From contig CANQXZ010000001.1 of the NCBI GenBank assembly GCA_947627955.1, positions 120,477-184,476 on the forward strand: a DNA stretch of 64,000 nucleotides, written 5' to 3'. The notes under the pieces are model-generated. The model searched no databases. It saw only the letters and a program-made list of their open reading frames with translations, and was not told the origin of the DNA. Positions 43,147-64,000 of the stretch are shown in pieces. The translations under genes were made by a program, and so were the position numbers. Each line of letters begins with the position of its first letter. Position 1 is the first letter of the stretch. Source of the stretch: an uncultured Clostridia bacterium. GTDB lineage: Bacteria > Bacillota > Clostridia > Christensenellales > Borkfalkiaceae.

Positions 43147-43234
43147 ATTGATTGCTCCTTTTGGCGTAAATGCCGTCGGAAGCAATCTATTTATGAATTT
43201 GTGTGACTTCCGCCGGTTGCGGCCAAGTCAAAAA

Positions 43235-44722: not shown

Positions 44723-45067
44723 CTAAAATAGTGCTTTTAAAATGCATTGATATTCGTCCACATCCACATTAATTAACGACTTTTTGCCATCCGTAAATTC
44801 AATTGAAATCATATATCGTTTGACTGTAGAGCTCGAAGAAACAGACGCAAACATCCCAACTGCCCCAAAAACAGCACCGCCGACCGCTCCTTTTAAAAGA
44901 GTCTTCCAAAATGGATGTGTTTCAATATCGTTAATGATTTCGTAATTAGCAATGTTTGTTTTATTGACTGCAATTCTTTTTAGGTGATGCATAAAAAAGA
45001 GTTTGTTTCTATATGCTATTACGTCATAATTTACATAGTCACCCGCTATAACTTTACTTTTGCTCAT
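44723..45067 (-). CDS. small protein with a glycine-zipper TM segment, unknown function
   Basis: 114 aa with a central GAVGGAVFGAVGMFASV segment. Confidence 0.5.
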   Translation of the reverse strand: MSKSKVIAGDYVNYDVIAYRNKLFFMHHLKRIAVNKTNIANYEIINDIETHPFWKTLLKGAVGGAVFGAVGMFASVSSSSTVKRYMISIEFTDGKKSLINVDVDEYQCILKALF

Positions 45068-49055: not shown

Positions 49056-50531
49056 TTATATTTTTCTGCCCCACTTCTTTTTTAGATCAATAGAAGCACT
49101 TGCTTTATCAATAAGCCACAATGCTGGCTCTTCAACACCATCAGGATTAAATTGACTGCCATTTTCAACGTGACCTAGCGCACTGCATGTAAAAAATTGA
49201 ATACTTTTAAATTTAGACTTTAAGCTATTTAAGAAGTTATCCTCCTCATATTCAATCAAAAACTGCTCACAAACTTTATTTATGGCCTCATACTTTGATT
49301 TCATATTATGAATTTGCATATACTTGCGTATAGCTTCATTACCGATTTTTTCATCAAGCCCAGGAATATCGCATTTTGTAAATACAACAGCAACATCTGT
49401 CTTAATCATGTTCTTTGGCGTTAGGCAATTCATATTTTCTAGCGTTTTAATAAGTACATCAAGTACTTCATCCATTCCGCGTTCGCTAGCGCCATATTTA
49501 GATAAACTAATTTTACTTTCAACTTCATCTCTATACCTTCTTAAAGAAAGCGGATCTACGACCATAAGGAAGGCATTTGCATATTTATAACCGATTTGTT
49601 TTCCAATCTCGCTATTGCTTTCATAGGCTTCACCTGCGACATCGCAAATAGATATTAAATTTTTTACCTTTTCTCCGTGGGGTGTAAGATAAAACTGATA
49701 ATATCTCATTCTTGTATCGTTAGTTTTTTCAGGTAGTCTACCGTCACCCATATTACGTTTATTGTTCTCATAATCATCACCTAAAGCCAAATTAGGTTTA
49801 TACTCAAAGTCCAACCCATTTTCGGAAGCATTTTTTTCGATTTGAGAAATTGCCATGCTAATATAACACGTTTTCCCGGCACTTGGTCCCCCAACAACAG
49901 GAATGGGAATATCTACTTGAAGCGGACCACCGAGCTCATATCCACACTTTGGACATACCCATTTACCAGATTGTTTGTGCCTGCCATTAAAAAATGTAGT
50001 TTTAAGTTTGCGACCACATTCACATTCACGCCTTAAAACTCCATATCTGCTAGGAGCAAGTAAAGAATGTTTTGCGCCACAAGTGCATATGTATGCTGGC
50101 AAAGCATATCTTTCTTGACAATTAGGACAACTTGTCGAAATTTTTTTAATACTTCTGTAAATCCAATCAAAAAACGCAATGATTAAGTATAAAATATAAA
50201 ATATTGTCATGAAAATCAGCAACACAATAGCTTGTACAACAGAAATAATTGCACAAGGAACTGGTGTTAAGATAGTGCTTAACAATAGCCAACCGAAGGA
50301 TAGCCCAAACATAAACATGGCCGCAACAGCTTTAAAAAAGCTAGCGAAAGGTTCATATAATGTGACAACATTTTTTACATTTCTTCCTAGTTTTCTTAGA
50401 GCTGATAAAACTGAATATGCACTTTTACTGATTATTCTGCCACACTGGATAAAAGTATTTGCAATTGTCTTTCCAAATTCTATATATCCATCTCTAAAGA
50501 AATAATTAATTTTTGCTGGCTGCTTTTCCAT
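49056..50531 (-). CDS. membrane-anchored double-zinc-ribbon P-loop GTPase (paralog 1)
   Basis: 491 aa with N-terminal TM helices and CPNCQER..CTCG..CECG..CPKCG ribbons. G1 is GGPSAGKT (49895-49866), G3 DVAGE, G4 TKCD and G5 CSALG. Confidence 0.75.
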   Translation of the reverse strand: MEKQPAKINYFFRDGYIEFGKTIANTFIQCGRIISKSAYSVLSALRKLGRNVKNVVTLYEPFASFFKAVAAMFMFGLSFGWLLLSTILTPVPCAIISVVQAIVLLIFMTIFYILYLIIAFFDWIYRSIKKISTSCPNCQERYALPAYICTCGAKHSLLAPSRYGVLRRECECGRKLKTTFFNGRHKQSGKWVCPKCGYELGGPLQVDIPIPVVGGPSAGKTCYISMAISQIEKNASENGLDFEYKPNLALGDDYENNKRNMGDGRLPEKTNDTRMRYYQFYLTPHGEKVKNLISICDVAGEAYESNSEIGKQIGYKYANAFLMVVDPLSLRRYRDEVESKISLSKYGASERGMDEVLDVLIKTLENMNCLTPKNMIKTDVAVVFTKCDIPGLDEKIGNEAIRKYMQIHNMKSKYEAINKVCEQFLIEYEEDNFLNSLKSKFKSIQFFTCSALGHVENGSQFNPDGVEEPALWLIDKASASIDLKKKWGRKI

Positions 50532-50550
50532 TATTAATTCCTCATATGTC

Positions 50551-50862
50551 TTATATGTACATTAAAACTAGTCTGTAAATTTCGTAAGCAACAGGGGCAA
50601 TAATTGCCAAAACAACTAACCCTATCACAATAAATAAGGCTACTTTCATATAAATATTACTTACGCTATGATTAATTCCAACCACACTATTTTTAATGGC
50701 GGAAACTAATCCGACAAAAATGCTTATAAACAAACCTATTACAAGTGATCCAACAAAAACCACTACTACGGTTGCAATTAGTATTGCTAATATTTGCAAC
50801 CCTAAGTACAGGAAGAATAATCCTCCTAGACAGCTACCTACTCCATCATCATCATCTGACAT
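50551..50862 (-). CDS. small three-TM membrane protein with acidic N-terminus
   Basis: 103 aa, MSDDDDG followed by three hydrophobic helices. Its start lies 5 nt downstream of the stop of the 894-aa gene. Confidence 0.5.
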   Translation of the reverse strand: MSDDDDGVGSCLGGLFFLYLGLQILAILIATVVVVFVGSLVIGLFISIFVGLVSAIKNSVVGINHSVSNIYMKVALFIVIGLVVLAIIAPVAYEIYRLVLMYI

Positions 50863-50867
50863 AATTT

Positions 50868-53552
50868 TTACTCCTTATTATTTTTATTAAATATTTTTTC
50901 AAAGAAACTCATATGTTCCTTTAAATATTTATCAATGAAATTTTTTACTTTAGGCAAATCCGGTTCTGATATTAGTTCACATATCTTTTTAAAAAGCTTC
51001 TTATAATCTCCTCTACTTAAAGTATCTACATATTTTGAAACAAAAAATATAAGATTACTTGCTAATCTATCGTTCACATTAAAGGCATACGCAAAAATAT
51101 CAGCTAAAATTTCGTAATATTCTTTGTTGCTTAGCTTTTCAAGTGGATTTAATATTGCCGCTATTGAACCATTAAGATATGATATCGGCCTTTCAAAAGT
51201 AGCTCTTAATAGTGTGTTGCTCTTGTATCCTTTTTCCTTATATTCGCAATACAGTTGCAATATATCAATAAAATAATTTGAAATGAACTGTTCCAATTGA
51301 AAATCATTAAGCCAAGAATACAGAGTATTCTGTTTTATACAATTGGTTAACAGATCTTCACCCAATTTTCCTCTTACAAGTAATATTGTCCGTAAGATAG
51401 AATAATTGTCTGGAATCTTAAAATGTGCATCACGCAACCTTACGTTTAACTCATTTATGCTACGTAAATAAGTAGGAGCATAATTAATTAGCTCTTCCAT
51501 TGATAATGAAAAAATCTCCTGATTTAAGTAATCTAAAATCAAAATCATATCAGCAAAAGAATTCTCAAAATCTTTTAATTGATCGTAGAATTTTATACTT
51601 TCGGCTATTTTATCTTTTCCTTTAAGATTACCAAGATATAATTTTATTTTTTGTATATATATGCCACTATCATATCCAGTTCGATAATATTTATTAAAGT
51701 AGCTATCTAATGAGCGGAAATTAACCTTTGTTGCGGTTTTAAAAACATAAGCTTCTTTCCGGAATAAGAAATCTCTAAAATCATTCTTTTCTTTATTAAG
51801 GTTCTCTACACTTTCAAATAAGCTCTTATATATGTCTGAATACTTTATATATAAATCCATGAAATTTGCATTTCGCATATTATTGCTGATAAATGTAGTT
51901 ATCAAGTGTGTCTTTTCTTGTTCATTTTCTAGTGAACATATAACGCTGAAAGCAAATTCCATCGACTTTACATCTGAAATTTGGCATTTTACAAAATCGC
52001 CTAAAGCGTTCATAATTAACCAATTTAATGCTTTGTCGCCTAACTGTTTAGCGCAATTCAAATATAATTTGAATTCTTCCAAGGATCTATGAGTAATGGA
52101 TTTTCGAATTATTTTATCCATTAACATATATGCTTTATTGTTTTCCGCTTCACTCAAATTTAATGCAATCGAATTTACCAATGCATCAAAGACATAATAT
52201 AGTTCATTTGTGCCGTTTCGAGCCTCAATGTATCTTTCCCATTCAGAATTGTTTACAACCATTAAGGAATAATCATTCCAAGGGAACGGAGCCTTATTCT
52301 TAATTTCAGCTAAGCTTGATTGTGGAGTGCCCGAATATATATTTACGCCAAAAAGCGTCAACTCGGAAAAATAACGATTCATTATTGAATCTTTTATATA
52401 TCGGTCGGAAAAATCGTAAGTAAATTTTATGAGCGAGAGAATTTCATTCCCTTTACCCCACTTCCCAGAAATGATTACTTCATTATAAAGATTAAAAGCA
52501 ATTTCTTTTTCATTAATATAATGATATTTCAAAGCAATTTCTAAAGCTGATGAATATTCCGACGCACCTGTGAACCACCTGAAGTTTTTCTGATTTAAAT
52601 AATAAACCGCCAATGCTATATCAATATGGCATTGTGTCATTGCTATTATATTGTTTACCGACTCTATTTTCTTTAAAATGGCAAATAAAGTCGATGACTC
52701 AAGTGACTGCATAACATCGTTTATATATCTACCTAATACTAATTTTGAACATATTTTCTTTTCAAAATTAAAAACAATGTTTCCTGCCGCAAGTTCATCT
52801 TGGTAGTTAAATGTTGAACCAATCATGCTTGCAAATATATTTCGAATTTTAATGGGCGGCATGCCTGTAGTTGTTAGGGTATAATCCAGCTGAGTAGAAT
52901 ACTGCGTACAAAAAGTTGCATCATTAAAATAACTTGCAGGCAAAAGTGTACCTATAATGGCATAGAGTAGTCTGATATTTTCTTCCGTGTCATTAAAAGT
53001 AATCCTATCTAATGAACCATGTGTATTTATCACCGCTTGCAATAAAGATGCTATATCTTGTTTATATCCACCAAAAGCAAGTTTTTTAATTGCTTCTTCA
53101 CTTGCAATACTTTGTGTATTTAATTCAATAGGTGGAAGCGATGCGGGAGCAGGATCATCGTGCCATTCTTTATATGAGAGACTTGATTTAAATGCTTTAT
53201 GTTCAAAAATGCAATAAGGATTAAACCCTTGTAATTCATCAAATATAAAAGCGTGAATGATGAAGTTTCCGTTACGGCTATCTTGATCGCTATAAACTTT
53301 GCCAATATAGCTTGATTGCGCGACACAACGTCTCCCAGACGAAAGAATAAAATAGGCATACTTCTTTGGGAAAAAGGCCTTAATTTCCTCATCTGTTGGT
53401 TCATATGGCGCATTTGGAGCCTTTTTATAGGACATAAGTTTGATAATTTCATCACATTCTGATTTTGTGACATTGTCAGATTTTGCCCATACACTAAATG
53501 CTCCGGATTTATCTTTTCCACAAGCCGTATAAATCATTTGATAGGCTAACAT
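50868..53552 (-). CDS. large all-helical protein, N-terminus resembling GTPase-associated protein 1 (GAP1)
   Basis: 894 aa behind an AAGGAG RBS. MLAYQMIYTACGKDKSGAFSVWAKS follows the QxxYTSxxxGxxGxxGFQxxAxS-type opening I associate with GAP1-N domains. This comes from memory of a motif, not a search. It lies directly downstream of a Zn-ribbon GTPase. Confidence 0.45.
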   Translation of the reverse strand: MLAYQMIYTACGKDKSGAFSVWAKSDNVTKSECDEIIKLMSYKKAPNAPYEPTDEEIKAFFPKKYAYFILSSGRRCVAQSSYIGKVYSDQDSRNGNFIIHAFIFDELQGFNPYCIFEHKAFKSSLSYKEWHDDPAPASLPPIELNTQSIASEEAIKKLAFGGYKQDIASLLQAVINTHGSLDRITFNDTEENIRLLYAIIGTLLPASYFNDATFCTQYSTQLDYTLTTTGMPPIKIRNIFASMIGSTFNYQDELAAGNIVFNFEKKICSKLVLGRYINDVMQSLESSTLFAILKKIESVNNIIAMTQCHIDIALAVYYLNQKNFRWFTGASEYSSALEIALKYHYINEKEIAFNLYNEVIISGKWGKGNEILSLIKFTYDFSDRYIKDSIMNRYFSELTLFGVNIYSGTPQSSLAEIKNKAPFPWNDYSLMVVNNSEWERYIEARNGTNELYYVFDALVNSIALNLSEAENNKAYMLMDKIIRKSITHRSLEEFKLYLNCAKQLGDKALNWLIMNALGDFVKCQISDVKSMEFAFSVICSLENEQEKTHLITTFISNNMRNANFMDLYIKYSDIYKSLFESVENLNKEKNDFRDFLFRKEAYVFKTATKVNFRSLDSYFNKYYRTGYDSGIYIQKIKLYLGNLKGKDKIAESIKFYDQLKDFENSFADMILILDYLNQEIFSLSMEELINYAPTYLRSINELNVRLRDAHFKIPDNYSILRTILLVRGKLGEDLLTNCIKQNTLYSWLNDFQLEQFISNYFIDILQLYCEYKEKGYKSNTLLRATFERPISYLNGSIAAILNPLEKLSNKEYYEILADIFAYAFNVNDRLASNLIFFVSKYVDTLSRGDYKKLFKKICELISEPDLPKVKNFIDKYLKEHMSFFEKIFNKNNKE

Positions 53553-53600
53553 ATCATCATACTCCTTAAATTAAGATTTAGATTAATTTTTATAATTAGT

Positions 53601-54716
53601 TTATTTTTTAACTGTCTGAATATAGTGATTTTCCGCTAATAACCATAAAAGCGGATCCAGAACGCGCCTAGGATTAATCTTGTTACCTGATAGCTTTGTC
53701 CCATTAGGAACACCTCCTAGTGCCGTCAAGCCAAAGAACGCATATTTTTCAAACTGCTTCATTTGCTGCACAAGCTCGGCATCCAGCCAGTTTTCCAAAA
53801 GATCTTGCATTTCAATATTGACGCTCTCGAAATCTGTTTCAACAAATACCCCACGCGCAAGATGTTCTGATTCCGAATGTAAACAACTATCTTCCTTTAA
53901 AAGATTGTACTGTTCCAACGCATCTATTTTTGTGAATGCCAAAGCAAGAGGAATCTTAATGGTTCCTCGTATATTCTTTACATCTCTGATATTTTGGACT
54001 ATTCGACTCAGAACTTCAACAACATCTGTATTTTGTGGAGGAAGCGACATTTTACCCTGAAGCTTCTCTCTAATTGTTGATACTTGCAAAGGATCAAGCA
54101 ACAAAATGATACCATCAGCATTAGGAATATAACGATTATTGACTAGCATATCATCGGTGGAGTCAAGATTTTCACCTGCAGTATCATAAAAGGACAATGC
54201 TGCCACTTTTTTAATATGATTATTTTTGTCCATAAAGCGCAAAGGAAAAATCAACGGAGGGACGTCATCTTGACTTGTGGCGTCAACTACAGAACCGTGT
54301 TTAAAAAGCGGCTCATAATAGTGGTCATTATAATACTGCCGAGACTCCTCACTACTAGCTAAACTTAAGGTACAATTAAAACTAGACGTCATCTTTCGCT
54401 TAATTTCGTTGATAAGTACGCCTATGTAATTGGACTTGCCGGAAGCCTTCGCACCAAGTAGCGCAACAGACAAGCTCTCTTCATTAAGAAAATCAGATGG
54501 AATTTCTTTATTAACAACACTGCAAAATACTGACTTTCGAGCATCTTTGCATTTCATGCATTTTTGCTTATCTTTATTTGGAATCCAGCCAGCTGCATCT
54601 TTGACTACGGTTGAAATACACTTATCGGGTTTCCCGGGAACATTATATGAGCATTTCAAACCACTGGAAATAATGTCATGCTTACCGTAACAATATGGAC
54701 ACGTAAATTTTTTCAT
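53601..54716 (-). CDS. soluble zinc-ribbon P-loop GTPase (TRAFAC-like motif order)
   Basis: 371 aa with CPYC...C...C...CMKC ribbons. G1 is GAKASGKS (54455-54432), G3 YDTAGE, G4 TKID and G5 LTALGG. Confidence 0.8.
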   Translation of the reverse strand: MKKFTCPYCYGKHDIISSGLKCSYNVPGKPDKCISTVVKDAAGWIPNKDKQKCMKCKDARKSVFCSVVNKEIPSDFLNEESLSVALLGAKASGKSNYIGVLINEIKRKMTSSFNCTLSLASSEESRQYYNDHYYEPLFKHGSVVDATSQDDVPPLIFPLRFMDKNNHIKKVAALSFYDTAGENLDSTDDMLVNNRYIPNADGIILLLDPLQVSTIREKLQGKMSLPPQNTDVVEVLSRIVQNIRDVKNIRGTIKIPLALAFTKIDALEQYNLLKEDSCLHSESEHLARGVFVETDFESVNIEMQDLLENWLDAELVQQMKQFEKYAFFGLTALGGVPNGTKLSGNKINPRRVLDPLLWLLAENHYIQTVKK

Positions 54717-55491: not shown

Positions 55492-56691
55492 TTAAAATAC
55501 ATTTAATCTAGTATGCTCGTTCGTCTTCTTTGAATAATAAATTGCCTGATTTTCCGGAAGTTGCGCAAATACATCGGGTAAATATACACGTTCCTTCTCA
55601 GTTGTAATCGATGTACTACTTTGCTTACTAGCACCACCTCTTCCATTTAAGCGATCCCAAAATGTTGGATTACTTACTCCTTTTGTTACAGTTTCTTTTT
55701 GTCTTTCATATGTACCAAAAAATTCTGAACAAAATTCCTTATTCTTGTTAGAGTTCTGTTTAAAGAAAAAATAACTGTCGGCATACTCGATCCACTCATT
55801 AGACTGTTCAATTAAGTTACTCAAATCTTGTATAGTATATAAAACATTGCAACTCTTTCCACCCTTTATAAGCTTCTGTATCCCAGAAGCAATTAATATA
55901 TCATTAGGTGTTCCATCAACAAGCACATTAACACTAGACACACTTGACGTGGCAACATTAAAACGCCCTATTGCATCTATAATAGCTGACATAATAAGAA
56001 TGGACTCCTCATGTTTTGCAGAAAAGTCTAAGCTTATTTCTATAATTGGTTTGCTCTTAAAAATCTGTTCTAAGCTCTTGTTTCCTGATAATACATAGCC
56101 AGAAACATTATTTGCAAAATCATAGAAATATGCCTCAAGTTCTCGAATTTCAGCCCTAATGCTATTTAAGAACCGATCATTTCTAGCCTGCTCAACACCA
56201 GTACTATATTTCATATTAAGATCTTCAATTTCTTCAATAGGAAAATCCAACAAATTATTTATTTTAACTGTTTTACCAGCTTTTTTAGCAAGATTTCTAA
56301 GAAGTGATATATAATTCTGAAAGCTCATTCTTTTGCTTTTATCAACTTCGTTATACATATCAAAAAGCTTGATAATATAAGCATTAATATCTGTATCAGT
56401 CATACCTGAGAAAATATCAATTTGCTCAGTTGTACTATTATCTGTGCAATCAACATCAAATATTAATCTGCTTGATGTTGTAATTGAAGGATATGATGAA
56501 AGCCCTGCTACTTGATCACGAAATATAATTACACCATATCCTCTGTTTATAGAGTCAATAGCATAATTTCTCATAATAACTTCTGCCCCTTGTTTTGAAG
56601 CGCCAGAAATTAATACATTTCCTAATGATGCATCAAGTGAAATTGTTCGACTACTTTTTGTAGCACCTCTAATAAAGTTTAATAATCCCAT
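55492..56691 (-). CDS. TraD/VirD4-like (FtsK-HerA superfamily) paralog with degenerate Walker motifs
   Basis: 399 aa, alignable by eye with the upstream ATPase. VLISGASKQGAE replaces LIGGIGSGKT and VLVDGTPND replaces FVCDEFKLLP. The C-terminal YTIQDLSNLIEQ region is conserved. Confidence 0.55.
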   Translation of the reverse strand: MGLLNFIRGATKSSRTISLDASLGNVLISGASKQGAEVIMRNYAIDSINRGYGVIIFRDQVAGLSSYPSITTSSRLIFDVDCTDNSTTEQIDIFSGMTDTDINAYIIKLFDMYNEVDKSKRMSFQNYISLLRNLAKKAGKTVKINNLLDFPIEEIEDLNMKYSTGVEQARNDRFLNSIRAEIRELEAYFYDFANNVSGYVLSGNKSLEQIFKSKPIIEISLDFSAKHEESILIMSAIIDAIGRFNVATSSVSSVNVLVDGTPNDILIASGIQKLIKGGKSCNVLYTIQDLSNLIEQSNEWIEYADSYFFFKQNSNKNKEFCSEFFGTYERQKETVTKGVSNPTFWDRLNGRGGASKQSSTSITTEKERVYLPDVFAQLPENQAIYYSKKTNEHTRLNVF

Positions 56692-56709: not shown

Positions 56710-58053
56710 TTATTTACGTGATTTAAATTCGCTAAAACCAAATTTAAATGGTTCAGCACTATTAATTGAAATTATAGCTTCACCAAGTTTTAGGTTGGCA
56801 ACATCCCAGTCTTCGACAACATGTGCTGTCGCAATAGTTTCTTGTACTGTTGTTGACTTATATGTAGTACATTTTCGATTTTCGCCTGACCGCTCTTTAA
56901 TGTAATTGCGAGTCGAATAATCACTAACCTTAAAAGCAAATAAATTTAGAAATCCAGAGAAAATGTTTTTTGCCATGTTTTCTCCATAAATTTCAATTAT
57001 TTGATCAACATTCTGGACACCTATCATGAATTTAATGCCTAAACTTCTACCAAAATTAACAGCATCATCAATATGTTGCAAGTTGGGTAGAAGTTTAAAT
57101 TCATCACATACGAAAAACACATTGCCATCGCTTTTTGAGCGGCATAAGGCTTCTTTTATTGCCAAATCAAATAATAAACTGTAAATAGGTGTCAACATAC
57201 CGCCAATGCCAATGTCATATTCAATAAATATTTTTTTACCACCCTTATTCCGTACTAATTCACGAATTGAAAGAGTCCCTCTTTTTGCAAAATTTCCCAC
57301 AAAAACAGACCTAACCACTTGCTGAAGTTCTGCTAAAACGCCAAGTGCTTGCCCCATTGCATCCAATGGTATATAGCTCTTCATTGCAGCGAAATTATTG
57401 TACATACTAAGAATACTATGATACCACTGAATATTCTCTTTCTTCATAGCTTCAGAAATAGTATAATTATCGCTTTGTACTGTTCCTCTCCCTTTCATCA
57501 ATACAAAATGATATAGTATAGCGGACATTATGTCTTTAGCTGCTTGAGGGAAAAAAGCATTATCGCCTGCTTTTTTCAATTTGTCGGCAAATAATGAATT
57601 TGATATCTCGATTACATCTTCTTTTAAACCAACAGAGCTATCCAGCTCATTAATGATGTTCCAATAATCAGTTCCAGTGCTACCACATGCAGAGGAATCG
57701 TTGCTAATCACTACGTCGCCTGGTCTATAGAACTCTTTATAAAAGTCTCCTTTAGTATCGAAAATAATCATTACATCACTAGATGACAATTGCGGTACTA
57801 TATTTTGAAGTATTTGATTGAATGTATTAGTTTTACCTGAGCCTATCCCTCCAATAAGCATAAGATGTTGACTTAAAAGTTTTTCAGTCAAAACAAATCT
57901 ATCATTAGCACCATTTCCATTCTTTCCATTAAAAACGATATTGATTGGATGTGGGCATTGCGGTGATGACTGTTGCATAGTTTGCGCCGCTAACGGGACA
58001 TTCAAATTAAGTTCCTGTCCTTCACATACTCGCACTGTCGTCTGGGCCATCAT
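56710..58053 (-). CDS. TraD/VirD4 (type IV coupling protein)-like P-loop ATPase without TM anchor
   Basis: 447 aa with Walker A GGIGSGKT (57852-57829), IIFDTKGDFYKEFY, Walker B FFVCDEF and GVQNVDQIIEIYGENMAKNI. Confidence 0.75.
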   Translation of the reverse strand: MMAQTTVRVCEGQELNLNVPLAAQTMQQSSPQCPHPINIVFNGKNGNGANDRFVLTEKLLSQHLMLIGGIGSGKTNTFNQILQNIVPQLSSSDVMIIFDTKGDFYKEFYRPGDVVISNDSSACGSTGTDYWNIINELDSSVGLKEDVIEISNSLFADKLKKAGDNAFFPQAAKDIMSAILYHFVLMKGRGTVQSDNYTISEAMKKENIQWYHSILSMYNNFAAMKSYIPLDAMGQALGVLAELQQVVRSVFVGNFAKRGTLSIRELVRNKGGKKIFIEYDIGIGGMLTPIYSLLFDLAIKEALCRSKSDGNVFFVCDEFKLLPNLQHIDDAVNFGRSLGIKFMIGVQNVDQIIEIYGENMAKNIFSGFLNLFAFKVSDYSTRNYIKERSGENRKCTTYKSTTVQETIATAHVVEDWDVANLKLGEAIISINSAEPFKFGFSEFKSRK

Positions 58054-58829
58054 GATCTTTTGATTCCCCCTGAATTGTTTTGTCCACTTAGTTCATTAGA
58101 TTTTGACACACCATTCAATCCAATATCCTGCATATTGACATTGTTTCTATTTTGATTCTGTAATTTAGCATAATCTTCAGAAACTTGTTTATCAATGTCT
58201 TTTGATGGCGAAGCAGTATAATGAAATCTTTCATTAGCCTGTTTATCGTAAAGTTCTATGTATTTTACTTCTTCCTCAGAATTTACTATACCTTTGGCAC
58301 CAACATATACTGATGTACACTCCATCACATTGCCTGTGTTGGGATTTTTAATTCCATTAAATTTTTCATAAAGTTCTGGACGATCCATTTTCTTTACTTC
58401 TTTAATTTCTGTATAGAACTCTCTTTTCAACTTTCTATCGTCCATATACATACTTCCGGGAATTCGGGTTCTTTCAGTTCCTGCCCTCATATTGTAATTT
58501 TCTCTTATAACGTTTGCACGCTTTTCCCGCAAGTCATCATGCGCTTGCGATAAAATATCATCATAAGATGTTCCCTTATATGAACAAGCATAATCTCCAT
58601 GCTTGTCTTCAAAATCCATCCCTACAATCTGTCTGTTCTTGTTGTCATCATAAATCCATACTCTCGTAGCCGTGAGTACACCATCCTTGCCTGGACGAGG
58701 ATCTCTAATTGTTGTATCAATATGACCATTAGCACTCTCTATGATATTTTCATGTGAAGAACCAATGCCATTATAACTATAACAACCCATTTCGGAATCG
58801 GATAATGGTGATTCATAATAATAAGCCAT
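58050..58829 (-). CDS. hypothetical protein, translationally coupled to the TraD-like ATPase
   Basis: 259 aa with no recognisable motif. Its stop overlaps the downstream ATG (ATGA at 58050-58053). Confidence 0.6.
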   Translation of the reverse strand: MAYYYESPLSDSEMGCYSYNGIGSSHENIIESANGHIDTTIRDPRPGKDGVLTATRVWIYDDNKNRQIVGMDFEDKHGDYACSYKGTSYDDILSQAHDDLREKRANVIRENYNMRAGTERTRIPGSMYMDDRKLKREFYTEIKEVKKMDRPELYEKFNGIKNPNTGNVMECTSVYVGAKGIVNSEEEVKYIELYDKQANERFHYTASPSKDIDKQVSEDYAKLQNQNRNNVNMQDIGLNGVSKSNELSGQNNSGGIKRS

Positions 58830-58869: not shown

Positions 58870-61800
58870 CTACAGTTTTACCACTTCTTTAAGATGAACT
58901 AAATTTGTTTCCTCATTTAGAAATAGAGCATATTTCATATTGGCAGCAGCTGGATTTACCATTATTGAGACTTTTGCTGTATATTTTTTTGATAATAATC
59001 CTTTTTTTAAAACTATTTTATCAATACGCTCACATAGCTTACCAGCATTTTTGTTCATAGGGCGTGGATAACCTTGCATAATAAGAAGTTTTGGAATCTC
59101 AGTTGCTTTATCAGATTCGAATGTGATATTAATCTTAAATGGTTTAATTGTTGATACTACATAATCAATGCTATATAATACCGTAATAGCCTCTCTATAA
59201 TCAATTGGCGGTTCAAGCTTAATTGCAGGCGAATAAGAAATGTTCCCATCTTCTTTGAATGCAACGAAAATGGTTATATAATTTACGGTATCTGTTTTAA
59301 GCTTGATTTCAAATTTACCACTTTTAGAAAAATCTTCGACCTTATAAGAGAATTTCTCTCCACCCCCATCGATATTTTCTATGTATCGATCATGCCCAAT
59401 TCTAACAATAATAGATTGTGCCTTGGGGTGTAGTGCGCCACTTACGGTAACTGTTCCATTATTAATGGAATGCGTTAGCTTTTTAATTCCCTCAATTGTG
59501 TTAATAAGGCGCGGTGGAGATACAACAAAAAGTTGCTCTGTACTTACAATAGGATAAACATAAAATATATTGCCAGCCGATAATGAAAAAATTATTTCGC
59601 CATTCGCATTAGCTGAAGATTCTATTTGAGCCAATCCCTTGCAAATTGAGTTGAAATCTAAATACTTGAGTGGTGTATTTGTAGGAATTGATAGTTTCTT
59701 GTTAGAAACATATAACTTCACTTTCCCAGCATAACCTGTAGCGCAGGTGAATACATATCTATTTGATTCAATTGGCTCTATCCTTACATCTTCAAGTGGA
59801 GTGGCTTTTTCGTAAGGCTTAAATACCGCGCAAATTCCGCGCGACTGGACAAGTTTACCCTTTAAATCATAATTACAAATAACAAGATATGCACTTTGTC
59901 CGTCGCATTTATTATCGGTAAAACCATTTAAAGAACATTCAACCCGAACACCTTCGCCTGAACGAGTAGGTGCTATTGTGCCGCTGTTTTTCCATACATC
60001 AATTGATTTTACATTTTGAGGAGCTTCCCAAATAACCTTAATACCACCGTCAACAACTTCCTGTTGCATGTTTGAAACATCAGCAAAAATAATCGCTGAT
60101 TCGCTTGTGACTGCAATTGAAGATTTTACCCCGTACCGCTCAACAAAAACAGCATAATAATACGGTGTAGCAGATACAATATTTACATCTTCAAAAAATT
60201 TAACTGAAAGACCACAATCTACAAGGGCACCATCTTCAGCAGAGATTGGAGCAACACCTATTTTCTTGATTATAGTGTAAGAAATAAATTCCTGTTTTGC
60301 ATTATCATCCCACTCTAAACGTACCTTTCCTTTTTCAGTAGTAATACGAAGGTTGGTTACTGCTTGGGGTGGGATCTTCTGCATTATTTGGCGAGCATCA
60401 GCATTATCATCACAGATATCAATTGCTTTTGCTGCAGTTGAAATTGCAAGCGATATATTACCTTGAGCCAAATACTGTTTTGCGGCATCAACTTGTCGTT
60501 GAGCATTTTGTACAACGGCAGAAATATCTGACACCAATTTGCGTGAATTATCAATATTGTAAGTGCTATATTTTACATTTAATGATTTAGCAATAGCTAG
60601 AGCTGATTGATAACAACGCTTAGCTATCATTTGTTGAATCTTTGAAACGTCTTCTTTATACTTAGCGCCTGTCGTTTCCTCTTGTCGTACTCTTGACTGA
60701 ATAACACTCTCATATTCTGCAACTTTTTTTGCTACGGTTGAATCAGCATGAGTAGCGTAATTGGGAACAACGTTTTTTACCTCCAAAAATACCGATTGTA
60801 AATCGCTTATCTCTACCATCGGGCGACTTAAAAGTTTATCAATTTTTTCGCAACACTGATTAAACATATCGTGGGCACGATGTGTTGCACCACAAGTAGG
60901 GCAGCCTTTATCCTCTTTGGTAAAAGGTGTCTTCTGTTTGCAGTTCCAACAAATGACTTCCAAAGGTTTCCCACAATGAGGACAACTCTTTGCACCCTTT
61001 ATATATAATTTTCCGCAATCCGGATAAGGACAAAATTCAAAGTTATTACCCTCCGTTTTCCCAACAATGGTGATTTGAAAGTATTTGCATCCTATGGCGA
61101 GAATTCTTTCCGCCTCATCAATTTGAACCTTTAAAAGTGCTATAACCGTGGAAGTATAATTTTTATACTCATCCATGGTCATTTCTTTAATGCCAAAAGA
61201 CTTCCTTTTCTCAAAATCACTCCACACGTCGTTTTTGAGAACAAGATATTGATCATAAGTTCTGCGTGCCTCCTTGCTATCCAAAAGTAATTTTTTTGCT
61301 GTAGCGCAAAGTTGACTAATAGCCTGTTTCCGCTTAAGGTCATTCGTCTTACTGCTGTCGCTATACATTTTATCTGAGGCTGCTTGTATTTCAGAATTAG
61401 ACGATGTGGATTGTACTCCTAAAAAATCATATAAATCTTTTTTCCCAAGAGTATCTAATCTCTTTTCTGTCTGTTGATAATCCGAGAATGGTATACTCGC
61501 ATCAATATTATCTATAATCTTAACACCCAACCCACTTAAATAGGAAATTGCATTTAACAGTTCTGCCTCAGAAAAAAAGATTATAGGCTTATTCGCTGTA
61601 TTGCAGATATCAATTACTTCACTTTTTAAAAGGGTTTTTCTTGTTTGACAAAGAATCTCAATTACACCAACGGCTTCTTTAAGTTTATATGCTTTGGCAT
61701 CCGCAGCTTCTTTGGCGCGCCCGCCTCGCTCAGGAATGTATTTTCCTGTGGCGGCATCATAAACGGAATCATTGCACATGATTTCGATGGCGTCTGTTTT

Positions 61801-61977
61801 TAGCTCAATCAGCCTTCGAGTCAATATGTCCCCCTTGGGACTCCCGGTAACTGTTTTTATTTTTGCATCAATTTTATTCTTGTCTGTTTCAGACAGATCA
61901 ATCTTAAAAGCAATGAAATAATTATATTCGGGATTTTTCAGCTCTTCTGCAGTTCTAAAGGGGCTAACCTGTGCCAT
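58870..61977 (-). CDS. 1035-aa multidomain protein: J-domain-like segment without HPD, double zinc ribbon, helical repeat, FN3/Ig-like beta domains
   Basis: KDLYDFLGV (61440-61414) ... EARRTYDQYL follows the J-domain helix I-IV pattern, but no HPD is visible. Also CPYPDCG..CPHCG..CWNCK..CPTCG ribbons, a TPR-like AKQYLAQGNISLAIS segment, and repeated V.L.W...... segments. Confidence 0.6.
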   Translation of the reverse strand: MAQVSPFRTAEELKNPEYNYFIAFKIDLSETDKNKIDAKIKTVTGSPKGDILTRRLIELKTDAIEIMCNDSVYDAATGKYIPERGGRAKEAADAKAYKLKEAVGVIEILCQTRKTLLKSEVIDICNTANKPIIFFSEAELLNAISYLSGLGVKIIDNIDASIPFSDYQQTEKRLDTLGKKDLYDFLGVQSTSSNSEIQAASDKMYSDSSKTNDLKRKQAISQLCATAKKLLLDSKEARRTYDQYLVLKNDVWSDFEKRKSFGIKEMTMDEYKNYTSTVIALLKVQIDEAERILAIGCKYFQITIVGKTEGNNFEFCPYPDCGKLYIKGAKSCPHCGKPLEVICWNCKQKTPFTKEDKGCPTCGATHRAHDMFNQCCEKIDKLLSRPMVEISDLQSVFLEVKNVVPNYATHADSTVAKKVAEYESVIQSRVRQEETTGAKYKEDVSKIQQMIAKRCYQSALAIAKSLNVKYSTYNIDNSRKLVSDISAVVQNAQRQVDAAKQYLAQGNISLAISTAAKAIDICDDNADARQIMQKIPPQAVTNLRITTEKGKVRLEWDDNAKQEFISYTIIKKIGVAPISAEDGALVDCGLSVKFFEDVNIVSATPYYYAVFVERYGVKSSIAVTSESAIIFADVSNMQQEVVDGGIKVIWEAPQNVKSIDVWKNSGTIAPTRSGEGVRVECSLNGFTDNKCDGQSAYLVICNYDLKGKLVQSRGICAVFKPYEKATPLEDVRIEPIESNRYVFTCATGYAGKVKLYVSNKKLSIPTNTPLKYLDFNSICKGLAQIESSANANGEIIFSLSAGNIFYVYPIVSTEQLFVVSPPRLINTIEGIKKLTHSINNGTVTVSGALHPKAQSIIVRIGHDRYIENIDGGGEKFSYKVEDFSKSGKFEIKLKTDTVNYITIFVAFKEDGNISYSPAIKLEPPIDYREAITVLYSIDYVVSTIKPFKINITFESDKATEIPKLLIMQGYPRPMNKNAGKLCERIDKIVLKKGLLSKKYTAKVSIMVNPAAANMKYALFLNEETNLVHLKEVVKL

Positions 61978-62005: not shown

Positions 62006-64000
62006 TTACTTTAAAGAATTGCCAACGACTTCTGTCGCAATAGATGATGCCACTTCTTTAAATGTGGCAGAAAGTTGACTCAAATCAACTTTCTTCCCTT
62101 TCCCACTGGAAATGCGACTGAGAAATGCCTCATCTGCATCACCAATGCCAATACCATAAATAATAATCCCGTCAGCTTTAGCTCGATCTGCAGCGGTTTC
62201 CTCTGTTGATTGATCATTCCAATATCCATCAGTAAGAACGACAATGACTCTTGGACAATCGCGTGTAAATTTCTTGTAATTATTGTTTATTGGCGTTTCT
62301 GCATTGCAATATCCAACATCATTAACATCAACGTCATCAATTGCATGATATAAGCGTCTCTCATCATTCTCCCATTTGCATTTATATTGTGAACGATCGG
62401 CAAAACTGATAACAGAAATGAAGACTCTGTTTAAGTCAAACTCCTTCACAAAATCCTTTGCTGCGCGTCGCGCTTCTCTAATTCTATTACCACTCATACT
62501 GCCAGAAGTATCTATCATTAGCATAATCTCAATTCTGCTTTTACGTTTTGCCTCCTCCTCTGCTTCTTTCTTTTCGCGCTCTAAACGTGCTATAATCTCG
62601 CTCATAGTTTCATTAGTATTCTCACGAGTAGATGATAAAACTATGCCATTATCCAAGCAAGCATTAACTTCAACAACACCATTTGAGTTATATAAAAAAT
62701 TAACTTTAATCTTGCTCTTATTGTCTTTTGGCATGCCAGTGATTGAATAAGCACCAATAATATCACACTCGTAAGGATCGCGAGCTTCTCCTTGCAAAAC
62801 ATACACTTGCAACTTCTCGCCTGAAAAAGTATATTCCCTACTAAACGGTTCATTGACCTTACTATTTTTTCTTATAATAATACTATTAATGTAGCTTTTT
62901 TCATCGCTTGCAAGCGCAAGCATGCCGAGACTATGTGCAGTAATATCTTGAATATCGCTATTGTGAATTGTAAGCGTAATCGGAGCCGTGGGCATAGAGG
63001 TACCGCTCGACTTGGCTGAATTGGCGGATGCAGAGCTTGCAACGGTTAACGTAATGGAATTACTCACGCAGAGTTCTGCTTGCATAGCTGCGCCTGTTGC
63101 TACTATCGTATCGACATTAATATCTTTTGTAATGGGCGGACGACCATATTCTTTGATTATCATGTCCTTGACTTGAGGCATTCTTGTTGAACCACCTACC
63201 AAAACGACTTCATCAATATTATTCCACCCAAATGGACGATTCTGGGCTTCACTAATTTCATCAAAGCAACTTTTTATCAACAGAATTGTTTCATATAGAA
63301 GACTATAGGTTTGATCATTAAAATCCTCTCGGGTAACAGTATATTTACCAAGATACCCATCGCATTGGATCGTAATAATAGTTGAAGCGACTGAGGAAAG
63401 TAACTTCTTGGCTTCCTCACACTTCACCTGTAATTCTTTAAGATCTTCTTCGTGGTCATCAATACTGACACCAAATTCAGAATAAAATTTCTCTTTAACT
63501 TGATTGATAAGCGTTTCGTCCCAGTCCTTTCCGCCCAATTGATGATTTCCGTTTGTTGCAAGAACATCAATTCGTGTTCCATTTACATTAGCAACTGTTA
63601 CATCAAATGTGCCACCACCGAGATCGTAGACAAGAACATTCTTTTCCTTACCACCTGTCAAGCCATATGCGATGATTGCCGAAGTAGGTTCATTGATTAT
63701 CTTTAAGACTTTTAACCCAGCCTTCTGACCGGCCCGAATTGTTGCTTCGCGTTGTTTATCATTAAAATAGGCAGGCACTGTAATAACCGCCCCATCAATA
63801 TCAATGCTATTGGTACTCTTTATGTCTTGAATAAGGTGTGCAAGATAAAGTCCCGACAACTCCTCAGCAGAATACTCCTGCCCATTTATGAAAGCACTCC
63901 AATTAGAATCGCCCATCATACTTTTATAAAAGGCAGCTGTATTAACATTGCCTGATTTTTGTTCATTCTTTGCATCTTCACCGACCATAATGCTTCCATT
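62006..64000 (-). CDS. Hsp70 (NBD plus SBD-beta) fused to a C-terminal vWA domain; N-terminus beyond the right edge
   Basis: AVITVPAYFNDKQREAT, IINEPTSAIIAYG, VYDLGGGTFDVT (about 63635-63601) and VVLVGGSTRMPQV. An SBD-like QVYVLQGEA segment, then vWA MIDAS MIDTSGSMSG (62518-62489). The reading frame stays open (NGSI) upstream of the listed Met. Confidence 0.9.
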   Translation of the reverse strand, partial: NGSIMVGEDAKNEQKSGNVNTAAFYKSMMGDSNWSAFINGQEYSAEELSGLYLAHLIQDIKSTNSIDIDGAVITVPAYFNDKQREATIRAGQKAGLKVLKIINEPTSAIIAYGLTGGKEKNVLVYDLGGGTFDVTVANVNGTRIDVLATNGNHQLGGKDWDETLINQVKEKFYSEFGVSIDDHEEDLKELQVKCEEAKKLLSSVASTIITIQCDGYLGKYTVTREDFNDQTYSLLYETILLIKSCFDEISEAQNRPFGWNNIDEVVLVGGSTRMPQVKDMIIKEYGRPPITKDINVDTIVATGAAMQAELCVSNSITLTVASSASANSAKSSGTSMPTAPITLTIHNSDIQDITAHSLGMLALASDEKSYINSIIIRKNSKVNEPFSREYTFSGEKLQVYVLQGEARDPYECDIIGAYSITGMPKDNKSKIKVNFLYNSNGVVEVNACLDNGIVLSSTRENTNETMSEIIARLEREKKEAEEEAKRKSRIEIMLMIDTSGSMSGNRIREARRAAKDFVKEFDLNRVFISVISFADRSQYKCKWENDERRLYHAIDDVDVNDVGYCNAETPINNNYKKFTRDCPRVIVVLTDGYWNDQSTEETAADRAKADGIIIYGIGIGDADEAFLSRISSGKGKKVDLSQLSATFKEVASSIATEVVGNSLK

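What the first reader, a model, noticed from the sequence alone, without database searches (positions are those of the whole stretch)
58870..61977. Giant partner protein with a J-like domain lacking HPD, a double zinc ribbon and FN3-like repeats directly downstream of the Hsp70-vWA
Residues around KDLYDFLGVQSTSSNSEIQAASDKMY...KEARRTYDQYL reproduce the spacing of J-domain helices I to IV. These normally read DxYxxLGV ... HPD ... YDxxG.

No His-Pro-Asp tripeptide is present between them. That suggests a J-like adaptor that docks on, but does not classically stimulate, the adjacent Hsp70.

The segment is followed by four CxxC pairs (CPYPDCG, CPHCG, CWNCK, CPTCG), a TPR-like helix pair, and about 500 aa of beta-rich repeats with FN3-like V.L.W signatures. 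These features would suit target recognition.
Basis: partly seen in the sequence, partly recalled or inferred. Interest (0 to 1): 0.68.

Follow-up and report, generated by a model that had tools for sequence, protein, structure and literature searches.

The report
Degenerate double-J, FN3 partner of Hsp70-vWA
This 1035-residue protein is the fibronectin-repeat component of a predicted bacterial anti-invader system built from GTPases and unusual Hsp70 chaperones. Its chaperone-docking "J" domain is real but has lost the catalytic His-Pro-Asp motif throughout the family.

Summary
ORF 58870..61977 (minus strand, 1035 aa) lies 28 nt downstream of an Hsp70(NBD+SBDβ)-vWA gene. It contains:
- a J-fold domain (res ~177-250) with S-D-S in place of HPD
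- a double zinc ribbon with eight invariant Cys
- a helical region
- five β-sandwich domains matching tandem FN3 arrays.

The architecture is already in the literature. Kaur, Burroughs, Iyer and Aravind (eLife 2020) predicted "GAP1-N2-type DO-GTPase" conflict systems. In their Hsp70/GrpE theme, the FNIII-repeat core protein is "typically fused to the DnaJ domain or to TPR repeats". The window carries that operon, and 28 related loci keep the order GrpE-like, Hsp70, Hsp70-vWA, this protein, DO-GTPase, GAP1-N2.

Details I did not find in the paper's main text:
- HPD is absent in all 78 close and 142 more distant relatives.
- Helix II has lost its basic face, and a conserved K-x-S-D-L-K-K-K-Q patch replaces the HPD loop.
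- The Hsp70-vWA never keeps the arginine (DnaK R167) that HPD acts on; the second Hsp70 keeps it in only 4 of 28 copies.
- No canonical J protein is encoded nearby.
- The N-terminal ~100 residues are probably a second, more degenerate J-like domain.

It is a new member of a predicted, untested kind, with a non-canonical J/Hsp70 coupling.

The parts
58870..61977 (-). Whole ORF, 1035 aa: the FNIII-repeat core component of a GAP1-N2-type DO-GTPase / Hsp70 system.
   Evidence: ORF listing. 87 homologues, mostly ~1030 aa. 3019 cluster representatives at E<=1e-3. AF2 mean pLDDT 89. No TM segment or signal peptide: maximum 19-aa hydropathy 1.39.
61648..61935 (-). Res ~15-110: probable second, more degenerate J-like domain (J1). 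It has a beta-hairpin insertion at res 70-85. T-G-S-P-K-G occupies the position where distant relatives have R-N-H-P-T-K-G.
   Evidence: The window subfamily's N-domain matches the broader family's N-domain (hhalign 99.1%, E 1.5e-18). The broader-family N-domain profile hits only J domains in PDB (21/21, best DNAJB8 E=1.2e-4). hhalign against canonical J gives 82.5%. The window subfamily alone gives no J hit. The helix pattern I-II-III-long IV mirrors J2.
61489..61647 (-). Res 111-163: small alpha/beta linker subdomain of unknown fold relationship.
   Evidence: AF2 secondary structure E115-117, H118-128, H137-150, E153-155, pLDDT about 90. No specific PDB fold match.
61228..61449 (-). Res 177-250: J-like domain (J2), four-helix J fold without HPD.
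   Evidence: sequence and profile; structure. L182, Y183, Y241, D242 and Y244 are invariant or nearly invariant.
61354..61362 (-). S206-D207-S208, the tripeptide aligned with His-Pro-Asp of canonical J domains.
   Evidence: Alignments. Column composition is [KSRQ][ENDS][SAG]. HPD occurs in 0 of 78 sequences.
61324..61350 (-). K210-T-N-D-L-K-R-K-Q218: a family-specific conserved basic patch at the loop and the start of helix III. Family consensus is K-x-S-D-L-K-K-K-Q.
   Evidence: Column counts: K210 66/78, D213 65/78, L214 58/78, K215 58/78, K217 62/78, Q218 69/78. Net charge is +2.65 here versus -0.97 on helix II.
61042..61194 (-). Res 262-312: helical hairpin that closes the N-terminal module. 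Res 1-306 behave as one evolutionary unit.
   Evidence: The module occurs as a standalone gene (L004 9989-10906, L010 6203-7147) and as a tandem duplicate (P0076). AF2 pTM is 0.78 for res 1-312.
60883..61041 (-). Res 313-365: double zinc ribbon with four CxxC-type pairs.
   Evidence: Eight invariant Cys. Pfam DZR E=4.5e-5, above the gathering score in P0067, P0079 and P0081. It is the most conserved region, with mean pairwise identity 0.65.
60370..60882 (-). Res 366-536: all-helical, TPR-like spacer of seven helices.
   Evidence: AF2 secondary structure. Weak MAS20/Tom20 matches at E=0.03 and 0.009. Kaur et al. mention TPR fusions.
58873..60369 (-). Res 537-1035: five tandem beta-sandwich (FN3-like) domains. 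The first two carry the V.L.W signature (W556, W650).
   Evidence: Foldseek matches to fibronectin FnIII 7-10, leptin receptor and gp130 at E about 1e-10. b1 versus b2 hhalign 95.9%. In P0081-type relatives this module is replaced by Flg_new plus LRR repeats.
62006..64000 (-). Upstream partner gene, truncated by the window end: Hsp70 NBD + SBD-beta fused to a vWA domain in place of the helical lid. Lys occupies the DnaK-R167 position.
   Evidence: Pfam HSP70 and VWA. Alignment to DnaK covers NBD and SBD-beta. No stop codon before the window end. At the R167 position the 24 relatives with a residue there have K16/A3/G3/M2 and never R. MIDAS motif D-T-S-G-S and ATPase motifs FYK, NEPT and GGGTFD are read.
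49056..54716 (-). System core that identifies the operon: ZnR-DO-GTPase2 (53601-54716), GAP1-N2 protein (50868-53552), small TM protein (50551-50862) and TM-ZnR-DO-GTPase2 (49056-50531).
   Evidence: Pfam DO-GTPase2 E=9e-9 and 1.7e-14, GAP1-N2 E=1.5e-15. Syntenic in 24 or more related loci.

Best explanation
The ORF encodes the cytoplasmic FNIII-repeat core component of a GAP1-N2-type double-GTPase (DO-GTPase) conflict system of the Hsp70/GrpE theme. The system is carried on a low-GC mobile island.

Shown:
- Its N-terminal ~306-residue module contains one certain degenerate J domain (J2) and one probable one (J1).
- A double zinc ribbon, a helical spacer and five FN3-like beta-sandwiches follow.
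- It is always encoded immediately after an Hsp70 gene. This is an ATPase-competent Hsp70(NBD+SBD-beta)-vWA in all but one locus. A second, NBD-only Hsp70 and a long GrpE-like protein lie just upstream of that.

Inferred:
- The J-like module tethers this scaffold to the operon's own atypical Hsp70s through a co-evolved, non-canonical interface. The HPD trigger and basic helix II are lost on the J side. The R167 arginine is absent from every Hsp70-vWA and from most copies of the second Hsp70. A conserved K-x-S-D-L-K-K-K-Q patch at the start of helix III is a candidate new contact.
- The zinc ribbon, helical region and FN3 array act as the protein-binding or assembly platform that links the chaperone pair to the DO-GTPase/GAP1 switch. 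This platform either senses an invader protein or nucleates a higher-order assembly.
- ATP turnover by the Hsp70s would then be governed by GrpE-like exchange and substrate or vWA engagement, not by classical J stimulation.
For: System identity:
- Pfam DO-GTPase2 (three copies), GAP1-N2, HSP70+VWA and a transglutaminase core lie in one minus-strand operon.
- The order GrpE-like > Hsp70(NBD) > Hsp70-vWA > target > DO-GTPase > GAP1-N2 > TM-DO-GTPase recurs in Clostridia, Erysipelotrichaceae, Anaeroplasma, Treponema and a Bacillales genome.
- Kaur et al. describe exactly this theme and the DnaJ/TPR-FNIII fusion (PMC7159879).

J fold.

HPD loss is family-wide.

Helix II is acidic and the basic patch has moved.

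The R167 position is K/A/G/M in the Hsp70-vWA (0/24 Arg) and K/S/Q/R/E in the NBD-only paralogue (4/28 Arg). The role of R167 and the HPD Asp is described in PMC7289447.

No HPD-bearing J domain is encoded within +/-10 kb in 31 loci or anywhere in the window.

The Hsp70-vWA keeps its ATPase motifs and the MIDAS motif. The GrpE domain is confirmed.

Modularity: the N-module occurs alone or duplicated, and the C-terminal array is swapped for LRR/Flg_new repeats in some relatives.

The protein is cytoplasmic: no TM segment or signal peptide.
Against: - No physical interaction was tested. AlphaFold-Multimer was not available.
- With both canonical contact determinants missing, the J-like domains may not touch Hsp70 at all.
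- The R167 substitutions follow lineage (K in the close clade, A/G in distant clades), so co-variation cannot be separated from shared ancestry.
- The FN3 array is no more variable than the rest of the protein, which does not fit a rapidly diversifying sensor.
- A defence function for the whole system is a computational prediction only. No PADLOC model matches the core genes and no experimental paper was found.
- J1 is assigned to the window protein only by transitivity; the direct comparison was negative.
Confidence: 0.6

Rival explanations
1. The J-like domains are purely structural. J1 and J2 would pack against each other, as the J-like Pam16 packs on the J domain of Pam18, to form a rigid N-terminal head. 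That head would oligomerise or bind other operon proteins (GAP1-N2, DO-GTPase zinc ribbons, vWA) and have no contact with any Hsp70.
For: - Both J-like domains lack HPD, and J2 lacks a basic helix II.
- Res 1-312 are predicted as one compact unit (pTM 0.78).
- The unit moves in evolution as one block: standalone, duplicated, or fused to other C-termini.
- A precedent exists for a J-like domain whose partner is another J domain rather than an Hsp70 (Pam16:Pam18, PMC3237618, listed).
Against: - Gene adjacency to two Hsp70 paralogues and a GrpE-like gene is near-universal. That is hard to explain if the only Hsp70-related fold in the protein is irrelevant to them.
- The conserved basic patch on the exposed II-III loop looks like an intermolecular interface.
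- J1-J2 contacts could not be read from the model with the tools at hand.
Confidence: 0.22
2. The inactive J domains act as a dominant-negative decoy. When the system fires, they would bind and block the housekeeping DnaK or a phage-exploited DnaK/DnaJ/GrpE cycle. This matches the 'inactive modules borrowed from cellular systems' effector logic proposed for these systems.
For: - Kaur et al. stress effectors that are inactive copies of cellular domains acting by dominant-negative interaction (abstract and section 35 of PMC7159879).
- HPD-less J domains cannot trigger hydrolysis (PMC7289447).
Against: - The protein is a constant core component, not a variable effector.
- It has lost the helix II basic residues needed to bind a canonical DnaK.
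- The operon supplies its own divergent Hsp70s.
Confidence: 0.08
3. The operon is part of a conjugative or secretion apparatus of the mobile island. The FN3 protein would be an adhesin or substrate handled by the VirD4/TrwB-like coupling ATPase, with the Hsp70s acting as secretion chaperones.
For: - A TrwB/VirD4-like ATPase (Pfam E=1.7e-39) and a degenerate partner lie two genes downstream.
- The island carries large serine recombinases.
- FN3, LRR and Flg_new repeats are typical of surface proteins.
Against: - The TrwB-like pair is present in only a minority of related loci: the two contigs behind L001/L002/L022, plus L003, L014, L016 and L017, with a more divergent copy (42% identity) in L026. 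The Hsp70/FN3/DO-GTPase/GAP1 core is constant.
- The ATPase has no TM anchor.
- No relaxase, VirB4 or pilus genes were seen.
- The FN3 protein has no signal peptide or TM segment.
- The ATPase also matches the defence-associated mad8 model.
Confidence: 0.05

Closest known systems
FNIII-repeat component of GAP1-N2-type DO-GTPase conflict systems, Hsp70/GrpE theme (Kaur, Burroughs, Iyer, Aravind, eLife 2020; PMC7159879)
   Same: - Same operon grammar: ZnR-DO-GTPase, GAP1-N2, TM-DO-GTPase, Hsp70, NBD-only Hsp70, GrpE.
- An FNIII-repeat protein with an N-terminal DnaJ/TPR fusion.
- Firmicute hosts and a mobile-island context.
   Different: [quoted passage not shown] Points found here and not found in the paper's main text (Figure 6B could not be viewed, and the one supplementary file held as text had no match for DnaJ, HSP70 or GrpE):
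- the universal loss of HPD
- the acidic helix II
- the arginine loss in the partner Hsp70s (complete in the Hsp70-vWA)
- the vWA fusion on the SBD-beta-bearing Hsp70
- the double zinc ribbon
- a probable second J-like domain.

The FN3 repeats are not notably fast-evolving in this clade.
Canonical J-domain proteins (DnaJ/Hsp40, Pfam PF00226)
   Same: - Four-helix J fold with rmsd 2.2-2.9 A to Ydj1, Tid1, CbpA and T. thermophilus DnaJ.
- Conserved helix I 'LYDFLG' and helix IV 'YDxY' signatures.
- Genomic partnership with an Hsp70 and a GrpE.
   Different: - No HPD: S-D-S here, never HPD in the family.
- Helix II is net acidic.
- No G/F region and no client-binding CTD.
- The zinc ribbon is a DZR, not the DnaJ CxxCxGxG zinc-finger domain.
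- The partner Hsp70s mostly lack R167 (never present in the Hsp70-vWA).
J-like proteins without HPD (for example Pam16/Tim16 of the mitochondrial import motor; plant and Plasmodium type IV JDPs)
   Same: A J fold retained with the HPD motif lost. These proteins have a regulatory or tethering role rather than stimulating the ATPase.
   Different: - No sequence relationship beyond the J fold.
- This is a bacterial protein.
- Two J-like domains may sit in one chain.
- It is embedded in a GTPase-centred conflict operon with dedicated divergent Hsp70s.
MoxR-vWA ternary conflict systems (same paper)
   Same: An NTPase chaperone is coupled to a vWA (MIDAS) co-chaperone domain plus a large non-enzymatic 'third component'.
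   Different: [quoted passage not shown] The switch is a pair of DO-GTPases.

Membership tests
J-domain (DnaJ, PF00226) | Four-helix J fold with a helix II/III hairpin | tested here: met
   AF2 pLDDT 91 with helices at 182-186, 194-208, 214-232 and 235-261. Foldseek matches to solved J domains: probability 0.9-1.0, TM(target) 0.5-0.73, rmsd 2.2-2.9 A. Viral J domains were also matched.
J-domain (DnaJ, PF00226) | Significant sequence or profile similarity to J domains | tested here: met
   Family profile against PDB: best E=1e-5 (J domains in 33 of 35 matches) and 3.3e-6 (all 42 matches). hhalign 97.4%, E=1e-11. Caveat: the Pfam DnaJ model gives no hit at E<=0.1 on the single sequence.
J-domain (DnaJ, PF00226) | Invariant His-Pro-Asp in the helix II-III loop | tested here: not met
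   S206-D207-S208 in the window protein. HPD occurs in 0/78 homologues, 0/142 representatives and 0/8 distant locus homologues.
J-domain (DnaJ, PF00226) | Basic face of helix II that docks on the Hsp70 NBD | tested here: not met
J-domain (DnaJ, PF00226) | Stimulates Hsp70 ATP hydrolysis | not testable with these tools
   Needs an ATPase assay. Indirect evidence: the partner Hsp70-vWA never has Arg at the DnaK-R167 position and the second Hsp70 rarely does.
FNIII-repeat component of GAP1-N2 DO-GTPase systems (Kaur et al. 2020) | Encoded in one neighbourhood with a DO-GTPase and a GAP1-N2 protein | tested here: met
   Pfam DO-GTPase2 and GAP1-N2 lie in the same minus-strand operon. The arrangement is conserved in related loci.
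FNIII-repeat component of GAP1-N2 DO-GTPase systems (Kaur et al. 2020) | Tandem FNIII repeats | tested here: met
   Five beta-sandwich domains. Foldseek E about 1e-10 to FnIII arrays. No Pfam fn3 sequence hit.
FNIII-repeat component of GAP1-N2 DO-GTPase systems (Kaur et al. 2020) | Hsp70 theme: linked Hsp70, NBD-only Hsp70 and GrpE, with DnaJ or TPR fused N-terminally to the FNIII protein | tested here: met
   The Hsp70-vWA is in the window. GrpE-like and NBD-only Hsp70 genes lie just upstream in relatives. In the window itself they would lie beyond base 64000 and were not seen. The J-like and helical regions are N-terminal to the FN3 array.
FNIII-repeat component of GAP1-N2 DO-GTPase systems (Kaur et al. 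2020) | FNIII repeats are 'rapidly evolving' | tested here: not met
   Mean pairwise identity is 0.41-0.52 for the five beta domains and 0.43-0.50 for the N-terminal regions. Whole-module replacement does occur in P0081-type relatives.
Double zinc ribbon (DZR, PF12773) | Two consecutive four-Cys zinc ribbons | tested here: met
   Eight invariant Cys. DZR E=4.5e-5 at 24 bits, below the 27.3 gathering score. Above the gathering score in P0067, P0079 and P0081.
Anti-phage defence system | Experimentally shown protection, or a match to a curated defence model | tested here: not met
   No PADLOC hit for the target, Hsp70-vWA, GAP1 or DO-GTPases. Only the accessory TrwB-like ATPase hits mad8 and HerA models. 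No experimental paper was found.

The most novel reading that the evidence does not exclude
This family could define a bacterial Hsp70 machine that runs without any HPD trigger. In this reading, two tandem pseudo-J domains and a relocated basic patch engage dedicated Hsp70 paralogues that have mostly given up the R167 relay (the Hsp70-vWA entirely). The J fold would then be a stable assembly adaptor, wiring an Hsp70-vWA chaperone to a GTPase-gated immune switch, instead of a catalytic co-chaperone. That would be a mechanistically new mode of J/Hsp70 coupling in prokaryotes, with a co-evolved interface that could be mapped directly.
Probability: 0.3. Interest if true: 0.75.

Novelty: new member of a known kind. 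Interest (0 to 1): 0.45.

Why it matters
J-domain proteins are defined by the HPD motif, and every well-studied bacterial Hsp70 cycle depends on it. This is a large family (about 3000 clusters at 50% identity) in which the J fold is kept and HPD is never present. The cognate Hsp70-vWA has always changed the arginine that HPD acts on, and the second Hsp70 usually has. A GrpE-like exchange factor is nevertheless retained.

If the proteins do interact, the family is a natural experiment on what a J fold can do besides triggering hydrolysis. It would also give a concrete, testable handle on the untested DO-GTPase/GAP1-N2 conflict systems, which are common in gut Clostridia.

If they do not interact, it shows how a co-chaperone fold is recycled as a scaffold. 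In both cases, annotating such proteins as 'DnaJ domain' co-chaperones would mislead.

Tried and rejected
1. Pfam, NCBIfam, PADLOC and PHROGs scans of the single sequence gave only a sub-threshold DZR hit and noise. There was no DnaJ or fn3 hit. Family profiles were needed.
2. Looking up the window's own contig through the exact protein failed because the protein is not on record. The genes upstream of the Hsp70-vWA in this genome were therefore not seen and are inferred from relatives.
3. The window subfamily's N-domain (res 1-165) gave no match against canonical J domains or against J2 by hhalign. The J1 assignment rests on the broader family's profile, and the merged alignment gives only 57% probability.
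4. Foldseek on the N-terminal model gave no specific match for res 1-163 or for the helical hairpin. Only J domains stood out, and their E-values are weak (0.5-3) because the domain is short.
5. Beta domains b3-b5 show no sequence similarity to b1/b2 or to fibronectin or tenascin FN3. Their FN3 assignment is structural only.
6. The supplementary text of Kaur et al. held nothing on DnaJ, HSP70 or GrpE. Figure 6B could not be viewed, so I cannot exclude that the authors drew the J domain as inactive.
7. The precomputed Pfam ids PF25832 and PF25833 on a few homologues were not reproduced by the local Pfam scan. Their identity is unknown.
8. Conjugation or secretion role: rejected as the main reading because the TrwB-like pair is accessory.
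9. No tRNA marks the island border.

Full report
**What is there.** The finding's coordinates match a single minus-strand ORF, 58870..61977, encoding 1035 aa.
- It has a strong AGGAG ribosome-binding site 7 nt upstream.
- It starts 28 nt after the stop codon of the upstream gene.
- No minus-strand terminator-like site lies in between.
- The upstream gene (62006 to the window end) has no stop before base 64000, so it is cut by the window.

The upstream gene is an Hsp70 with NBD and SBD-beta fused to a vWA domain.
- Pfam gives HSP70 E=4e-86 and VWA E=2e-19.
- Its alignment to DnaK covers the NBD and SBD-beta.
- The ATPase motifs (FYK, NEPT, GGGTFD) and the MIDAS motif D-T-S-G-S are intact by direct reading.

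The whole region from about 37.5 kb to the window end is a ~35% GC block. It abuts ~50% GC housekeeping genes. Large serine recombinases sit at its inner edge, so it is a mobile island.

**Checking the observation: the J-like domain.**
- The single sequence already matches the J domain of human DNAJA3 at E=0.0099, and DnaJ more weakly, over res 177-244.
- A profile of 78 homologues hits J-domain chains almost exclusively in the whole PDB sequence set. The best is E=1e-5, spanning J positions 2-70.
- A second profile of the N-terminal 312 residues gives 42 hits, all J domains, best E=3.3e-6.
- AlphaFold2 models are confident: full length pLDDT 89, and res 1-312 pLDDT 91 with pTM 0.78.
- The models place helices at 182-186, 194-208, 214-232 and 235-261.
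- Foldseek's only specific matches are solved J domains (Ydj1, Tid1, CbpA, T. thermophilus DnaJ, DNAJB family). TM is 0.5-0.73, rmsd 2.2-2.9 A over ~67 columns, probability 0.9-1.0. The viral library gives the same answer.
- The tripeptide aligned with HPD is S206-D207-S208.

**Checking the observation: the other domains.**
- The four Cys pairs are all invariant and match Pfam DZR.
- Res 537-1035 form five beta-sandwiches that match four-to-six-domain FnIII arrays at E about 1e-10.
- Only the first two of these domains are detectably homologous by sequence.
- The 'TPR-like' region is seven helices with a weak Tom20-type similarity.
- The protein has no TM segment or signal peptide, so the FN3 array is cytoplasmic.

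**Is the HPD loss conserved?** Yes, completely.
- The three columns read [K/S/R/Q][E/N/D/S][S/A/G]. No sequence among the 78 has HPD in the J region.
- Eight more distant homologues taken from related loci lack it.
- A search of 1.84 billion representatives found 3019 relatives at E<=1e-3. None of the 142 newly returned hits has HPD in its first 330 residues. The J2 domain is recognisable in almost all of them, with 132 domain matches at iE<0.01.

- Helix II carries 5-6 basic residues in canonical J domains. Here it is net acidic, with a mean charge of -0.97.
- A strongly conserved K-x-S-D-L-K-K-K-Q patch sits in the loop and at the start of helix III.

**Context and the known system.** The genes downstream are:
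- a 259-aa unknown
- a soluble TrwB/VirD4-like ATPase and a degenerate partner
- a coiled-coil protein
- a DO-GTPase2 with two zinc ribbons
- a GAP1-N2 protein
- a small TM protein
- a TM-anchored DO-GTPase2
- a third DO-GTPase2
- a transglutaminase-core protein.

These Pfam families were defined by Kaur, Burroughs, Iyer and Aravind (eLife 2020, PMC7159879). That paper states three things:
- In about 14% of GAP1-N2 neighbourhoods, mostly in actinobacteria and firmicutes, there are genes for HSP70 and GrpE, and often a second Hsp70 lacking the peptide-binding domain.

Related loci confirm the match. In 28 genome loci plus three from exact-protein look-ups, the order is GrpE-like > NBD-only Hsp70 > Hsp70-vWA > this protein > ZnR-DO-GTPase > GAP1-N2 > TM-DO-GTPase > transglutaminase. 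The hosts are Clostridia, Erysipelotrichaceae, Anaeroplasma, Treponema and an Alkalihalobacterium.

The TrwB-like pair is present only in a subset of loci. The architecture, however, is not new.

I found no experimental study of these systems. PADLOC has no model for the core genes.

**What seems new.**
1. The partner Hsp70s have changed the residue on which HPD acts. The arginine at the NBD/linker/SBD-beta interface (DnaK R167) is the target of the HPD aspartate, and R167H suppresses DnaJ D35N (PMC7289447).
   - In the Hsp70-vWA family the position is K (16), A (3), G (3) or M (2), and never R.
   - In the NBD-only paralogue it is K, S, Q, R or E, with Arg in 4 of 28.
2. No HPD-bearing J domain is encoded in any of the 31 loci (+/-10 kb) or in the 64-kb window. 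A GrpE-like exchange factor is nevertheless always present.
3. The N-terminal ~100 residues are probably a second, more eroded J-like domain.
   - The N-terminal profile of the broader family hits only J domains in PDB (21/21, best DNAJB8 E=1.2e-4, positions 4-68).
   - It scores 82.5% by hhalign against canonical J domains.
   - The window subfamily's N-domain is homologous to that broader N-domain at 99.1%.
   - It shows the same short-I / II / III / long-IV helix pattern.
   - The direct comparison was negative, so I rate this at about 65%.
4. Res 1-306 behave as one evolutionary unit.
   - The unit is a standalone gene next to the full-length one in L004 and L010.
   - It is tandemly duplicated in P0076-78.
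   - In P0081-type proteins, res 1-422 are fused to Flg_new and BspA-type LRR repeats in place of the helical region and FN3 array.
5. The FN3 array is not faster-evolving than the rest of the protein in this clade. The zinc ribbon is the most conserved part.

**How it most likely works.** Shown:
- The protein is a cytoplasmic, multi-domain, non-enzymatic protein.
- It is a constant member of the operon.
- It is translated right after an ATPase-competent Hsp70-vWA.

Inferred:
- The pseudo-J module tethers it to the operon's own divergent Hsp70s by a co-evolved non-canonical surface. The relocated basic patch and helix III are the candidates. Helix III-dominated J/Hsp70 contacts are known for auxilin and T antigen.
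- The zinc ribbon, helical spacer and FN3 array provide the binding or assembly platform that connects the chaperone pair to the DO-GTPase/GAP1 switch.
- This platform would either sense an invader, as Kaur et al. propose for the FNIII domains, or nucleate a larger assembly.
- Hsp70 cycling would be set by the GrpE-like factor and by substrate or vWA engagement rather than by a J trigger.

I put about 0.85 on the identity of the protein and system, and about 0.45 on the tether mechanism, for a combined 0.6.

Rivals:
- The J folds are only a structural head, Pam16-like (0.22).
- They are a dominant-negative decoy for housekeeping DnaK (0.08).
- The operon serves conjugation or secretion (0.05).

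**Verdict.**
- Correct: the J fold, the HPD loss and the Hsp70 linkage.
- Unproven: 'docks on' Hsp70, and the canonical docking surface is itself gone.
- Missed: the larger, already published system context.

Novelty is 'new member of a known kind'. The specific, testable twist is HPD-less double pseudo-J domains paired with Hsp70s that have mostly lost R167 (completely in the Hsp70-vWA). That twist keeps the interest moderate (0.45).

Noticed in passing
window 37500-64000 (edge genes 37678-38001, 38011-39723, 39720-41468): The whole system sits on a ~35% GC island next to ~50% GC housekeeping genes (leuS, mutS2, uvrC, copA, asnS, lysA). The inner edge carries two large serine recombinases and a resolvase fragment. 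No tRNA lies at the border.
   Followed up: partly
window 53601-54716, 49056-50531, 46164-47576: One operon holds three DO-GTPase2 paralogues: one soluble with two zinc ribbons, and two with hydrophobic or zinc-ribbon N-termini. Kaur et al. describe one or two per system.
   Followed up: no
window 56710-58053 and 55492-56691: A soluble TrwB/VirD4-like ATPase (Pfam E=1.7e-39, PADLOC mad8 E=4e-17) sits beside a 399-aa degenerate TraG-D_C-like partner. The pair is present in only a subset of related loci, so it is an accessory module of the system.
   Followed up: partly
L004 9989-10906; L010 6203-7147; P0076-P0078: The N-terminal module (J1 + linker + J2 + hairpin, ~306 aa) also exists as a separate gene directly upstream of the full-length protein. 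It also occurs as a 607-aa tandem duplicate with no zinc ribbon or FN3 array.
   Followed up: partly
P0081, P0085-P0087 (relatives, not in the window): Res 1-422 are kept at 64% identity, but the helical and FN3 part is replaced by Listeria-Bacteroides (Flg_new) repeats plus BspA-type and other LRRs. This is a wholesale swap of the putative binding array.
   Followed up: partly
L003 4960-6021, L007 4851-5873 (GrpE-like genes of related loci): The GrpE homologues are 280-470 aa in most full-system loci (183-212 aa in a few divergent ones). The GrpE domain occupies only the last ~100 residues. The long N-terminal extension has no Pfam match.
   Followed up: no
window 58050-58829: A 259-aa ORF lies directly after the target and overlaps the TrwB-like start by 4 nt. 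It has no family match in Pfam, NCBIfam, PADLOC or PHROGs. A partial homologue occurs only in the Oscillospiraceae-type loci L001/L002/L022.
   Followed up: no
window 16652-19447: The host (non-island) part of the window encodes a 931-aa protein with List_Bact_rpt / internalin-like repeats. This is the same repeat type that replaces the FN3 array in P0081-type relatives.
   Followed up: no
window 44723-45067 and 41863-42468: Two small island ORFs match PHROG families of unknown function (phrog_20920 E=3e-23; phrog_1558 E=1e-16). A sigma-70 region-4 protein lies between them at 42757-43185.
   Followed up: no
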